DNA of 47,013 nt, from IMG/VR virus record IMGVR_UViG_2541047907_000003. One strand, 5' to 3'. The DNA is from a virus. Its lineage: Duplodnaviria > Heunggongvirae > Uroviricota > Caudoviricetes. Of the stretch, positions 33,430 to 35,300 are shown one piece after another; the stretch's first letter is position 1, and each line of letters starts with the position of its first letter. A program made the translations under genes and the position numbers. The notes below the pieces were generated by a model. The model was not told where the DNA came from and searched no databases. It worked only from the letters and a program-made list of their open reading frames with translations.

Positions 33430-35300
33430 TTCTGATAGTTAACATTACAAGATATAAGTAATGGACGCACTCCCAATTAGTCTATTTAAATCGCCACGAG
33501 TTTAACTGACAACCCATGATCAATTATGAATTGCAACTATTTCTGTAGTCACTTTTGTGGGGACAGTCCACAAAACTGCCAACTTCCGCTTCTTGCTCTT
33601 AGCGGACATTAGCATAGGCTATTTACCATAACGCCTCATTACGCGCACCGCCCAGACTGACTCAGCGCGTTTCTGGCATATCCCCGGTAAAACAAGTAAC
33701 AAACCACCCGAAAATGAACACCAGAAACGCGACTTAAGAATCTACCCTATGAATGGATATGCACTCAACCGAATCGATCTTGGTTTCAATCTTTTTTATC
33801 GGGATCAGGCTTCTTTTTAGGTAACTTCGGGGGCTTAACTTGCTGATGACTTTGCGTTCGGCGCGTAAGCCAGGGATGGTCAGCTTTAGGTTTAACATAG
33901 TATTTTGAGCGTAAATCAATACGGGCATTATCCACTCGTTCATGGACACTCTTTTCATCATCCAGTGGTATAGGCTCCGGGCCATCAACATACTTTTCCC
34001 AGCCCAGCGCTTTCCCGTCATACAGAACGTTAATTTCACCGTCAAAGTTCTCGCATACAGTAACAACCGAATGCCTAAGTCGATATCCCCGGCCCTCACT
34101 GCGTACCTGAAACGCACTGCTTTTGTACTGGAAAGTGAGATTTTTAGACAGAACGCGCTTCGCCTGTAGGCTGAAGATATAACCCAGTTCCTCTTCAGAA
34201 TGGTGCTCATCAAGATGAGCATTATCAGTAGTACGAGGCGACGTAGCGAACCGGTTGTTATAGGCTTCAATAAAGGTCGGCAACCATGCATTTGCTGTTT
34301 CAATATCACTGATATTCTGAAGCCGCATTTCTTTGACCAGCCTGTCCTGTAGAGTCTGATTGGCGCGCTCTACCCGCCCTTTTGCCTGCGGGCTGTTGGC
34401 ATGGATTGGCTCGATGCCCAGTGTCTTTATCGCACGAGTGAACTGGGTCAGCTCACCTTCCCGCTCTGGGTTATTTACCCTGAATATACTGTGTCTATCA
34501 GAGTAGAGAGCGAGCGGTACGCCATGATCATTAAGGTAACCCCGGAGGGTTTCCATGTAAGCCCGGGTTGTTTCAGCAGGCACAAAACGCAACGCCATCA
34601 ACGCACTGGTGGCATCATCAATGAAAACGATCAGTGTACATCTGGGGCCTCGATTTTCAAACCAGTCATGAGGTGAGCCATCAATCTGGATCAGTTCACC
34701 GTAAGATGGTCGTCGCATGCGGCGTTGATATATACGGGCAATTTTACGACGGCGTTCACGCCATAACCCCTCTTCTATCATCCACTTTCTGAGAGTTTCA
34801 ACGGATAAAGATAAACCGTGTATCTCGCGCAATTTTTCGCACGCAAACGTAGGTCCAAAATCAGCGTAACGGCCTTTGAGGAGTGAAATTACTGTTGCTC
34901 TGAATTCAGTAGAAAAGGAATTATTAGGACGCTTTCCACGTCGGTGGGAAACCAGACCAGAAGGCCCTTCATTTCTATACCGTTGCACCAGACGTTTAAC
35001 CTGCCGAATAGAAATGCCAATGCGTGCCGCAGCTTGTTCCTGAGTAATATGTCGATTAATTGACTCCTGAATAATCTGAAGTCGGTGGAGTTCCTTATGA
35101 CTCATCGTAACAGTCTCTTTGATCATGAAAAATCCCCCAGAGAATTGTCTGGGGACATTTTAGAATGGTTCAAAGGGGACATTACAGCTTGGTGTTAACA
35201 CTAGCCTGCTTCTCCTTGCCTTTCGGCACGTAAGAGGCTAACCTACATGTGTCTAGCATGAAATTGGCCTCAGATTAATGTTAAGCGTCTTGCAGGACGC
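33430..35300 (-). mobile_element. insertion sequence with integrase-core (rve) DDE transposase; family unassigned, ends approximate
   Basis: 446-aa transposase ORF; candidate inverted 12-mer AGTTAACATTAC near 33430 and its complement GTAATGTTAACT near 35286; no flanking direct repeat identified. Confidence 0.45.
33786..35126 (-). CDS. DDE transposase (N-terminal HTH, integrase catalytic core)
   Basis: 446-aa ORF; HTH region QEQAAARIGISIRQVKRLVQRY; core motifs IQIDGSPHDW...IVFIDDATS...HANSPQAKGRVERANQTLQDRL. Confidence 0.8.
   Translation of the reverse strand: MIKETVTMSHKELHRLQIIQESINRHITQEQAAARIGISIRQVKRLVQRYRNEGPSGLVSHRRGKRPNNSFSTEFRATVISLLKGRYADFGPTFACEKLREIHGLSLSVETLRKWMIEEGLWRERRRKIARIYQRRMRRPSYGELIQIDGSPHDWFENRGPRCTLIVFIDDATSALMALRFVPAETTRAYMETLRGYLNDHGVPLALYSDRHSIFRVNNPEREGELTQFTRAIKTLGIEPIHANSPQAKGRVERANQTLQDRLVKEMRLQNISDIETANAWLPTFIEAYNNRFATSPRTTDNAHLDEHHSEEELGYIFSLQAKRVLSKNLTFQYKSSAFQVRSEGRGYRLRHSVVTVCENFDGEINVLYDGKALGWEKYVDGPEPIPLDDEKSVHERVDNARIDLRSKYYVKPKADHPWLTRRTQSHQQVKPPKLPKKKPDPDKKD

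What the first reader, a model, noticed from the sequence alone, without database searches (positions are those of the whole stretch)
33430..35300. Second insertion sequence with unresolved ends
The 446-aa HTH plus integrase-core transposase is clear, but I could not define terminal inverted repeats or a target duplication. The best candidate is a 12-mer AGTTAACATTAC near 33430 with its complement near 35286, which is partly palindromic and therefore weak evidence. There are also direct GGGGACA-containing repeats near 33560 and 35150. Its position beside the NTPase suggests it delivered or trapped that cargo.
Basis: seen in the sequence. Interest (0 to 1): 0.35.

Follow-up and report, generated by a model that had tools for sequence, protein, structure and literature searches.

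The report
Hok-targeting transposon that carries relBE
The "insertion sequence with unresolved ends" is the transposase end of a 3.3-kb transposon that also carries the classic relBE toxin-antitoxin genes, and its relatives land again and again, to within a few bases, on the start codon of hok toxin genes in prophages and plasmids.

Summary
The 446-aa transposase ORF (33786-35126, minus strand) is real and intact. It belongs to the IS1202 family (ISEsa1 type). The mobile unit is window 31900-35200 (3301 bp). Its 26-bp inverted repeats both begin TGT and match at 19/26. It is flanked by a 15-bp target duplication, 14/15 here and perfect in a Shigella copy. Joining the two flanks in silico gives a sequence found uninterrupted at 605/605 identity in E. 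coli NRG 857C. There hokD sits directly beside the same P-loop ATPase, so the ATPase is not cargo. The real passengers are relE, relB, ydfV and flxA.

The insertion splits a hok/sok locus at the hok start codon. The sok/hok leader lies at 35205-35371 and hokD at 31731-31886. Across public contigs the same two ends bound elements of 2.3 to 12.8 kb, with perfect 15-bp duplications in 55 of 75. All keep a relBE module beside one end, and the cargo between varies (CDF transporter, nickel and chromate resistance). IRL abuts the hok start in at least 15 different hok leader types.

This explains why ISfinder's 1609-bp ISEsa1 has no reported duplication, and how the K-12 relBE-hokD arrangement arose. 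Targeting is inferred from genomes and is not tested experimentally.

The parts
31731..31886 (-). hokD ORF (51 aa). This is the distal half of the disrupted hok/sok target locus. It is not part of the element.
   Evidence: ORF. Pfam HOK_GEF 82.9 bits. Contiguous with the sok leader in the empty site.
31885..31899 (.). Target-site duplication, IRR-side copy (ATAGCCTGCTTCTCC on + strand; GGAGAAGCAGGCTAT on the hok strand). It spans the hok Shine-Dalgarno to the AT of the ATG.
   Evidence: The two window segments overlap by 15 nt on the NRG 857C empty site. The Shigella copy L016 has a perfect 15/15 duplication.
31900..31925 (-). Right inverted repeat (IRR), TGTCAACGCAAAGCAGAAGTGTCACC. A second ATGTC-type repeat lies about 24 bp further in (about 31942-31950).
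   Evidence: 19/26 match to IRL, and 0 of 200000 random 26-mer pairs reach that. The same IRR bounds 75 elements elsewhere. By my own count on the sequences printed, it matches 21/26 to the IRR of the simple Rhabdochlamydiaceae IS.
31958..32245 (-). relE toxin gene (95 aa), passenger.
   Evidence: Pfam ParE_toxin 51 bits. Annotated relE in the identical ETEC1738 locus.
32245..32484 (-). relB antitoxin gene (79 aa), passenger.
   Evidence: Pfam RelB 112.3 bits.
31900..32612 (-). Conserved relBE-plus-IRR module, shared by elements with different cargo.
   Evidence: BLAST of the window element against L007, L010, L013, L017, L021, L022, L024 and L075: 90-99% identity over about 713 bp ending at IRR.
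32509..32814 (+). ydfV, in the variable cargo.
   Evidence: It lies in the segment 32613-33590, which differs between elements.
33017..33349 (+). flxA, in the variable cargo.
   Evidence: Pfam FlxA 53.8 bits..
33591..33785 (-). Conserved non-coding tail of the transposase module. It contains an 11-12 bp inverted repeat (33666-33676 / 33721-33731) and a third TAATGTCCGCT repeat (33601-33611).
   Evidence: Module boundary at 33570-33595 in all comparisons. Stem (I14). Repeat.
33786..35126 (-). Transposase, 446 aa (439 aa from the second ATG). HTH domains plus a DDE core with D149, D210 and E253. K-12 'ydfW' is its last 49 codons (33786-33935).
   Evidence: ydfW coordinates. K-12 homology stops at 33970.
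35175..35200 (-). Left inverted repeat (IRL), TGTTAACACCAAGCTGTAATGTCCCC on the transposase strand. AATGTCCCC is repeated at 35175-35183 and 35151-35159.
   Evidence: An identical IRL is found at 170 junctions in public contigs.
35201..35215 (.). Target-site duplication, IRL-side copy (CTAGCCTGCTTCTCC). It has one mismatch, at 35201.
35205..35371 (-). sok antisense RNA and hok mRNA leader. This is the proximal half of the disrupted target locus and is not part of the element.
   Evidence: Rfam RF01794 sok, 111.2 bits (gathering score 59), full model 1-157 ending at the hok ATG.

Best explanation
Window 31900-35200 is one 3301-bp transposon of the IS1202 family (ISEsa1 type) lying on the minus strand. 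Its order is IRL, a 74-nt leader, a DDE transposase, a conserved 195-nt tail, variable cargo (flxA, ydfV), a conserved relB-relE module, then IRR.

Shown:
- The two ends are 26-bp imperfect inverted repeats beginning TGT.
- The element is flanked by a 15-bp duplication of the hok Shine-Dalgarno/ATG region.
- Removing it in silico recreates a natural uninterrupted hokD/sok locus.
- The same ends with their own duplications bound elements of 2.3-12.8 kb elsewhere.
- IRL lies next to the hok start in many unrelated hok loci, almost always in one orientation.

Inferred:
- The transposase binds the repeated AATGTCCCC-type sites at each end and makes cuts staggered by 15-16 bp.
- It chooses its target by recognising DNA at or just upstream of the hok translation start. 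A CAA immediately 5' of the duplication is also seen in distant relatives.
- Insertion cuts the hok ORF off from its promoter, mok and the Sok target. Because the duplication spans SD to ATG, an intact ribosome-binding site is left in front of hok, now downstream of relBE. This is the K-12 relB-relE-hokD ('relF') arrangement.
- The element's own relBE then takes over the addiction role and stabilises the element and its cargo.
For: Ends and duplication:
- IRR and IRL match 19/26, and no random pair out of 200000 reaches that.
- A perfect 14-nt direct repeat, 15 with one mismatch, abuts both ends.

Empty site:
- The synthetic join of 31600-31899 and 35216-35520 matches E. coli NRG 857C at 605/605 in one piece. 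2553 genomes cover at least 80% of it.
- Direct alignment shows the two window segments overlapping by 15 nt on that genome.
- Its annotation reads rem-hokD-ATPase, with no relBE and no transposase.

The target is hok/sok: Rfam sok at 111 bits abuts IRL, and hokD is Pfam HOK_GEF.

Replication in other loci:
- Nearly identical 3301-bp copies (99.8-99.9%) sit in three different hok loci, each with its own duplication: hokD, an IncF plasmid hok, and an IncI hok-family gene beginning MMPQRTFLMM (PndA-like by recall).
- 75 complete elements were found, 55 of them with perfect 15-bp duplications.
- Their lengths run from 2261 to 7694 bp, plus a 12,843-bp element carrying ncrABCY and chrBA with the perfect duplication GGAGAAGTCAGCTAT.

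Target bias:
- 35 of 55 distinct IRL flanks score as hok leader above every one of 1100 shuffles.
- They fall into 16 leader clusters with median 71% identity.
- Junctions lie within a few nt of the ATG.
- Tandem IRR-duplication-IRL arrays occur in L021, L159 and L218.

Family:
- NCBIfam ISNCY_2 at 463.8 bits. PGAP names the identical protein 'IS1202-like element ISEsa1 family transposase'.
- Simple-IS relatives in Hahella (1449 bp) and Rhabdochlamydiaceae (1466 bp) have the same end types and 15-16-bp duplications.
- The DDE residues are conserved.

Literature:
- ISEsa1 is listed as 1609 bp with no duplication found (PMC10132070). That length equals the conserved transposase module of about 1610 bp.
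- It is listed in the ISTde1 (16-17-bp duplication) group without data.
Against: - No experiment: transposition, orientation and targeting are all inferred from genome comparison.
- The duplication in this window copy has one mismatch, and the IRs match only 19/26.
- Roughly a quarter to a third of distinct IRL flanks are not hok leaders. Distant relatives show no hok preference. Targeting is therefore a strong bias, not an absolute rule.
- Selection against insertions elsewhere on plasmids could inflate the bias.
- ISfinder's ISEsa1 entry (1609 bp, IR 15/22) could not be inspected, so my claim that it describes only the transposase module rests on matching length and matching 439-aa protein size.
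- The exact duplication length is ambiguous by one base at some junctions (14-16 bp).
Confidence: 0.82

Rival explanations
1. A simple IS of about 1.9 kb is bounded by the 12-mer AGTTAACATTAC (33437) and its complement (35312), and the adjacent NTPase was delivered or trapped by it.
For: The 12-mer pair is real and rarer than chance: 2 matches against 0.03 expected.
Against: - The right-hand copy lies in the sok/hok leader, which is present, with the ATPase, in genomes that lack the element.
- Copies in other contexts share homology only from about 33581-33591 to 35200 on that side.
- No duplication flanks the 12-mers.
Confidence: 0.01
2. The mobile unit is the 1.6-kb ISEsa1 module (33591-35200), as catalogued. 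The relBE-flxA segment is ordinary neighbouring DNA that was mobilised once by read-through to a surrogate right end, as with ISEcp1, and then spread by homologous recombination.
For: - ISfinder lists ISEsa1 as 1609 bp, matching the conserved module.
- The middle segment is variable, so cargo has been exchanged.
Against: - No IRR-like sequence exists at the module end.
- None of the 75 complete elements is a simple IS; the shortest are deletion derivatives of 2261 and 2575 bp.
- The same IRR occurs with at least 8 different cargo structures and at more than 15 different targets, each with its own perfect duplication. A one-off event followed by recombination cannot do that.
- The 31900 IRR matches the bona fide IRR of simple relatives at 21/26 (sequences; the count is mine), far better than a surrogate end would.
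- ISEsa1 copies were reported to lack duplications, as expected if the catalogued right end is not real.
Confidence: 0.05
3. The boundaries are as I describe, but the association with hok starts does not come from target recognition. It reflects selection, because insertions that silence a toxin gene are tolerated and most other plasmid sites are not, or spread by recombination between hok loci.
For: - Non-hok insertions with good duplications exist (L017, L037, L075).
- Relatives in Hahella and Chlamydiae insert at varied sites.
- hok genes are known from the literature to be frequently inactivated by other IS elements (my recollection of Pedersen and Gerdes 1999, not checked here).
Against: - Selection for hok inactivation would allow insertion anywhere in about 400 bp of promoter, leader or ORF. 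Here junctions in 16 leader types lie within a few nt of the ATG and in one orientation, with a single exception in L020.
- Leaders are only 53-89% identical while the elements are 91-100% identical, and each site carries its own duplicated 15-mer. That argues against recombinational spread.
- Tandem re-insertion at the same 15-mer parallels the targeted ISKpn21 arrays at dif.
Confidence: 0.12

Closest known systems
ISEsa1 (ISfinder; IS1202 family, formerly ISNCY/IS1202 group)
   Same: PGAP names the identical transposase 'IS1202-like element ISEsa1 family'. The protein is 439 aa from the second ATG, and the conserved module is about 1610 bp. The published figures are 439 aa and 1609 bp.
   Different: The catalogued element has IR 15/22 and no target duplication. 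Here the functional right end is 1.7 kb or more beyond the catalogued length. The ends match 19/26, a 15-bp duplication is present, and relBE plus cargo lie inside. The ISfinder sequence itself was not compared.
ISTde1 subgroup of the IS1202 family (16-17-bp duplications)
   Same: TGT...ACA termini, imperfect IRs of about 26 bp, a single 400-500-aa HTH-DDE transposase, and a long duplication of 15-16 bp. ISEsa1 is listed on that subgroup's sheet.
   Different: That subgroup was reported not to show target specificity. The enterobacterial elements here show a strong, oriented bias for hok starts and always carry passengers.
ISKpn21 / ISAba32 (ISAjo2) subgroup: IS1202-family elements that target XerCD dif-like sites, some with passenger genes (tIS)
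   Same: Same family. Oriented insertion at a fixed short distance from a conserved host or plasmid site, with IRL next to the site. Tandem arrays at the site and passenger genes occur in both.
   Different: The duplication is 5-6 bp against 15 bp. The target is a Xer site against the hok translation start. The passengers there are single unknown ORFs, whereas here there is a conserved relBE addiction module plus resistance cargo up to 11 kb.
Tn7 (TnsB transposase, attTn7 targeting)
   Same: TGT/ACA termini and repeated internal transposase-binding sites at each end. A TnsB-like architecture was modelled for a family member in PMC10132070. Both insert site-specifically and in one orientation.
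   Different: No TnsA, TnsC, TnsD or TnsE homologues lie inside the element. The only ORFs are the transposase, relBE, ydfV and flxA. The duplication is 15 bp rather than 5 bp. No structural comparison was made here.
The E. coli K-12 relB-relE-hokD (relBEF) locus of prophage Qin
   Same: K-12 matches window 29112-33970 at 99.2%, so it holds IRR, relE, relB, ydfV, flxA and the last 185 bp of the transposase gene (= ydfW).
   Different: K-12 has lost the rest of the transposase, IRL, the sok/hok leader and the ATPase. The transposon origin cannot be seen there. The literature available to me only says that relBE 'integrated' into hokD (PMC6379469).

Membership tests
IS1202 family | Single transposase of about 400-500 aa with N-terminal HTH domains and a DDE (rve) core | tested here: met
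   446 aa. Pfam HTH_28/29/32/23 plus rve_3. NCBIfam NF033594 at 463.8 bits, cutoff 250. D149, D210 and E253 are conserved in relatives.
IS1202 family | Termini 5'-TGT ... ACA-3' with imperfect inverted repeats of about 24-29 bp | tested here: met
   IRL TGTTAACACC... and IRR TGTCAACGCA..., 19/26.
IS1202 family | An additional internal copy of the inner IR motif near each end (putative second transposase-binding site) | tested here: met
   AATGTCCCC at positions 18-26 and 42-50 of the IRL end. AGTGTCACC is at 18-26 of the IRR end, and GATGTCAT at about 43-50 by my reading of the sequence printed.
IS1202 family | Target duplication in one of the family's length classes (5-6, 15-17 or 24-29 bp) | tested here: met
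   15 bp, perfect in 55 of 75 elements and 16 bp in some. Relatives give 15-16 bp.
IS1202 family | Length 1.3-2 kb with no passenger genes (simple IS) | tested here: not met
   3301 bp here and 2.3-12.8 kb elsewhere, always with relBE. It therefore falls under the 'transporter IS'/unit-transposon exception already known for ISKpn21.
ISEsa1 (the ISfinder entry) | At least 95% DNA or 98% protein identity to the reference sequence (ISfinder naming rule, from memory) | not testable with these tools
There is only indirect agreement: the PGAP name, 439 aa and about 1609 bp.
[quoted passage not shown] | sok antisense RNA and hok leader with the conserved fold, followed by a Hok/Gef peptide gene | tested here: met
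   Rfam RF01794 at 111.2 bits, full length. Pfam HOK_GEF at 82.9 bits. The two halves are contiguous in the empty site.
relBE type II toxin-antitoxin (the passenger) | Adjacent small antitoxin (RelB) and toxin (RelE/ParE fold) genes with overlapping stop and start | tested here: met
   Pfam RelB 112.3 bits and ParE_toxin 51 bits. The genes share base 32245.
Tn7-like transposons | TnsA, TnsC and a target selector (TnsD/TnsE or CRISPR) alongside the TnsB-type transposase | tested here: not met
   No further ORFs of that kind lie between 31900 and 35200.

The most novel reading that the evidence does not exclude
Enterobacterial ISEsa1-type elements are a family of unit transposons that actively recognise the translation-initiation region of hok toxin genes and insert there in one orientation. 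They carry their own relBE addiction module next to IRR, plus exchangeable cargo that includes nickel, cobalt and chromate resistance. In effect they overwrite one plasmid or prophage addiction system with another. The textbook K-12 relBE(F) operon would be a decayed copy. The ISfinder entry would describe only the transposase module, which is why no target duplication was ever found. A more speculative extension is that the conserved 195-nt structured tail after the transposase gene takes part in target choice.
Probability: 0.65. Interest if true: 0.7.

Novelty: new variant of a known kind. Interest (0 to 1): 0.6.

Why it matters
1. It gives testable ends, a duplication length and a target for an IS type whose published description says no duplication could be found. 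Annotation pipelines currently split it into a 'partial' transposase, 'ydfW' and unrelated genes.
2. It adds a second kind of site-specific targeting to the IS1202 family: the hok start, besides Xer sites. There is a compact target of about 20-40 bp and only one element-encoded protein, which makes target recognition by a DDE transposase experimentally approachable.
3. It explains the origin of one of the most studied toxin-antitoxin loci. relBE in E. coli K-12 is transposon cargo, and hokD/relF is the beheaded target.
4. The same vehicle carries metal-resistance operons on IncF plasmids of Enterobacter, Klebsiella and Phytobacter, inserted into the plasmid's hok stability locus.

Tried and rejected
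- A search for 22-nt inverted repeats pairing 33400-33790 with 35127-35330 gave only chance-level hits (at most 15/22) and none at the ISfinder spacing of 1609 bp.
- I looked for an IRR-like sequence at the end of the conserved transposase module (about 33591). None was found, only a third direct copy of TAATGTCCGCT.
- I tested whether that module end is a relic of a hok leader. It scores no better than shuffles.
- I tested whether the conserved hairpin after the transposase gene shows RNA-type covariation. It has 12 conserved pairs and some G-U changes but no compensatory double changes, so the result is uninformative.
- A sequence search of the transposase against PDB gave only a weak integrase-core hit (E = 0.007). 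No structure prediction was run.
- Literature searches for hok with IS1202 or ISNCY, and for hokD with relBE and transposon, found no description of this element or of hok targeting. Ramisetty and Santhosh 2016, cited as saying that relBE integrated into hokD, is not in the library.
- The idea that the ATPase is cargo was rejected by the empty site.
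Full report
**What is at the coordinates**

The region 33430-35300 holds one long ORF on the minus strand, 33786..35126, of 446 aa.
- It has four overlapping HTH-type Pfam hits at the N-terminus and an integrase-core rve_3 domain.
- It scores 463.8 bits against NCBIfam NF033594 'ISNCY family transposase', cutoff 250.
- An identical stretch in E. coli ETEC1738 is annotated by PGAP as 'IS1202-like element ISEsa1 family transposase'.
- The window is a Qin-like lambdoid prophage: cspB, cspF, ydfT, ydfU, rem, hokD, relE, relB, ydfV, flxA, the transposase, an Sll1717-family P-loop ATPase, DUF977 and further genes.

GGGGACA occurs at 33560, 35151 and 35175.

**Finding the real ends**

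Plasmid copies of the transposase share near-identical DNA with the window only from about 33581 to about 35200. Beyond ...GGTGTTAACA (35200) every copy continues with a sequence that is different but clearly related. I recognised this as the reverse complement of a hok leader ending in the hok Shine-Dalgarno and ATG. Rfam confirms it: sok (RF01794) matches 35205-35371 on the minus strand at 111.2 bits, full length, with the model ending at the hok ATG.

The hok ORF itself (hokD, 31731-31886) lies 3.3 kb away. Immediately upstream of it the sequence TAGCCTGCTTCTCC is repeated exactly (31886-31899 and 35202-35215). Directly inside that repeat lies TGTCAACGCAAAGCAGAAGTGTCACC. This matches the reverse complement of the other end, TGTTAACACCAAGCTGTAATGTCCCC, at 19 of 26 positions. 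Not one of 200000 random pairs of 26-mers from the window reaches that.

**The empty site**

I joined 31600-31899 to 35216-35520 in silico and searched E. coli genomes.
- The 605-nt construct is present uninterrupted at 100% identity in E. coli NRG 857C and others. 2553 genomes cover at least 80% of it in one place.
- Aligning the window to that genome puts 28100-31900 on locus positions 1-3801 and 35202-38043 on 3787-6630, a 15-nt overlap.
- The annotation there reads rem, hokD, P-loop ATPase (the same protein accession as in the ETEC1738 locus that is 100% identical to the window over 33300-35500), DUF977. There is no relBE, flxA or transposase.

So the inserted DNA is 31900-35200 plus a 15-bp duplication. 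The ATPase belongs to the prophage and is not cargo.

**Replication elsewhere**

A scan of one genome per species with the transposase, and scans of viral and metagenome contigs with the IRL 26-mer, gave 170 IRL junctions.
- The same IRL and the same IRR (...GGTGACACTTCTGCTTTGCGTTGACA) bound 75 complete elements. 55 have perfect 15-bp duplications, and most of the rest are shifted by one base, that is 16 bp.
- Lengths are 3301 bp (the window type), 3274, 4487, 4600, 4901, 5822, 6093, 7694 and others.
- A Phytobacter IncF plasmid holds a 12,843-bp element with the perfect duplication GGAGAAGTCAGCTAT.
- The 3301-bp type occurs at 99.8-99.9% identity in three different hok loci, each with its own duplication: hokD in E. 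coli and Shigella, a plasmid hok in Enterobacter asburiae, and a hok-family gene (MMPQRTFLMM..., PndA-like) next to trbA in a Salmonella IncI plasmid. This points to recent mobility.

**Architecture**

Comparing elements shows two conserved modules.
- The first is IRL plus transposase plus a 195-nt tail (element 1 to about 1610; window 35200-33591).
- The second is a relB-relE-IRR module (window 32612-31900).

The DNA between them varies:
- ydfV and flxA in the window.
- A cytochrome-b561-like protein and a CDF cation-efflux transporter in L017. The same pair interrupted by other IS elements (not scored against a family library) in L007 and L022.
- LysR regulators, a hotdog thioesterase and a membrane protein in L021 and L024.
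- ncrABCY and chrBA on the Phytobacter plasmid.

A 71%-identical relative in Scandinavium (L037) carries a Vat-family acetyltransferase. In the position next to IRR it has a different type II pair, a GNAT toxin with a TacA antitoxin. None of the 75 complete enterobacterial elements is a simple IS.

More distant relatives are simple IS elements: 62% protein identity in Hahella and 50% in Rhabdochlamydiaceae, at 1449 and 1466 bp. They have the same kind of ends and 15-16-bp duplications. In 10 of 15 copies (my count on the flanks printed) a CAA lies immediately 5' of the duplication on the IRL side. The hok target has the same CAA (GGCAA|GGAGAAG...).

**Target preference**

- Of 55 distinct 70-nt IRL flanks, 35 align to the tail of the Rfam sok/hok consensus better than any of 1100 shuffled controls.
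- Including two just below that threshold (L005, L013), they form 16 clusters whose leaders are only 53-89% identical, median 71%.
- In all of them the junction lies within a few bases of the hok ATG, and IRL faces the leader, so the transposase gene reads in the same direction as hok mRNA.
- One locus (L020) has the opposite orientation at the same 15-mer.
- Three loci show IRR-duplication-IRL tandems.
- About a quarter to a third of distinct flanks are not hok, so this is a strong bias and not an absolute rule.

**Mechanism: shown and inferred**

Shown: the ends, the duplication, the empty site, the conserved DDE triad D149/D210/E253, the repeated AATGTCCCC-type motifs about 24 bp apart at both ends, and the oriented site bias.

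Inferred:
- The transposase binds those repeats, cuts the target with a 15-16-nt stagger and recognises DNA at the hok start.
- Insertion separates the hok ORF from its promoter, mok and the Sok-binding region.
- Because the duplicated 15-mer runs from the SD to the ATG, hok keeps a ribosome-binding site and now lies just downstream of relE and IRR.
- That is the K-12 relB-relE-relF(hokD) operon arrangement. The operon statement is from my own knowledge of the older relB literature and was not checked here.
- The conserved relBE, or TacAT in the relative, next to IRR plausibly stabilises the element after it has destroyed the resident addiction gene.

**Relation to what is known**

- Harmer and Hall list ISEsa1 as 1609 bp, IR 15/22, 439-aa transposase, with no duplication detected in multiple copies. 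They place it in a small third subgroup (PMC10132070).
- Siguier and colleagues list it on the ISTde1-group (16-17-bp duplication) sheet without flank data, and state that only the ISAba32 subgroup shows targeting, to Xer sites.
- The window ORF is 439 aa from its second ATG, and the conserved module is about 1610 bp. I therefore think the catalogued ISEsa1 is this module. ISfinder could not be queried.
- K-12 MG1655 matches the window from 29112 to 33970 and then breaks. It keeps IRR, relBE, ydfV, flxA and 185 bp of the transposase gene, annotated as ydfW.
- A review says relBE 'integrated' into hokD, citing a 2016 paper I could not read.
- I found no paper describing the transposon or the hok targeting.

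**Verdict**

The feature is a new variant of a known kind: an IS1202-family unit transposon with a conserved toxin-antitoxin passenger and a previously unreported target. Confidence is about 0.9 in the boundaries and about 0.75 in active hok targeting.

Noticed in passing
window 38044-39355: About 1.3 kb is present in the window but absent from the otherwise near-identical NRG 857C prophage. It contains an ALIL frameshift pseudoknot (38905-39021, minus strand, 120 bits), so it is an IS3-family insertion.
   Followed up: partly
window 33666-33676 / 33721-33731: An 11-12-bp perfect inverted repeat (GCGTTTCTGG...CCAGAAACGC) with a conserved 40-nt loop lies in the non-coding tail after the transposase stop codon. 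It is conserved even in 71-80%-identical relatives. Only G-U type changes are seen and no compensatory pairs, so its function is unknown.
   Followed up: partly
window 33601-33611: A third copy of the end-repeat motif (TAATGTCCGCT on the transposase strand) lies in the same orientation as the IRL copies, at the very end of the conserved transposase module and 1.6 kb from either terminus. It is conserved in L007, L017, L024 and L036 and partly in L021, L037 and L038. It could be an internal transposase-binding site or the scar of an ancient tandem.
   Followed up: partly
window 31900-31906 and relatives' IRR ends: IRR ends in GTTGACA, a perfect -35 hexamer (TTGACA) facing outward, while IRL has TTAACA and contains TGTAAT at positions 15-20. 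This asymmetry is conserved in Hahella and Rhabdochlamydiaceae. It resembles the junction-promoter arrangement of copy-out-paste-in IS elements described. The spacing was not evaluated.
   Followed up: no
L001 (ETEC1738) 6487-7806; window 33786-35126: PGAP annotates the intact 446-aa transposase ORF as a C-terminally truncated pseudogene plus a separate 49-aa 'protein YdfW'. The K-12 name for the leftover 3' fragment has apparently propagated into genomes where the gene is whole.
   Followed up: yes
L085, L088 and 14 other viral contigs: A derivative of the hokD insertion in which only about 29 nt of hok leader remain next to IRL, fused to the coding sequence ...RRYDSRLNIICRECR of the DUF977-like gene (window 37278-37700). 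This implies a deletion of sok and the ATPase at a short GTGCCG(A/G)AAGG homology.
   Followed up: partly
L021 6554 onward; L159; L218: Tandem arrangements of IRR, a 10-15-nt duplication, and the IRL of a second element (in L021 a divergent one), at hok-type target sequences. This is analogous to the tandem ISKpn21 arrays at dif sites.
   Followed up: partly
L037 (Scandinavium hiltneri) 4927-9201: A divergent family member with a broken transposase (164-aa ORF). It carries a Vat-family streptogramin A acetyltransferase (315 bits, cutoff 300), a GrpB-like protein and a GNAT/TacA toxin-antitoxin pair next to IRR. It is inserted at a non-hok site with a perfect 15-bp duplication.
   Followed up: partly
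L237 (Phytobacter plasmid pMRY16-398_1) 1016-13858: A 12.8-kb member carries the nickel/cobalt (ncrABCY) and chromate (chrBA) resistance operons between the transposase and relBE. It is inserted in the plasmid hok next to psiA. Klebsiella pneumoniae and Enterobacter hormaechei plasmid hits cover the same query span as this one; the ncrC-ncrY|transposase junction itself was checked only in the E. hormaechei plasmid L003.
   Followed up: partly
Hahella L025-L035, Rhabdochlamydiaceae L041-L064, non-hok enterobacterial flanks: A CAA (often GCAA) lies immediately 5' of the 15-16-bp duplication on the IRL side in 10 of 15 simple-IS copies and in several non-hok enterobacterial insertions. This may be a family-wide target motif.
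   Followed up: partly
window 132-330, 25042-25427, 27935-28327, 42207-42258, 31641-31722: Other Rfam matches in the window: IS009 RNA, two cspA thermoregulators and DicF, all above the gathering score. There is also a sub-threshold isrK-like hit just downstream of hokD (25.6 bits, E = 0.015).
   Followed up: no
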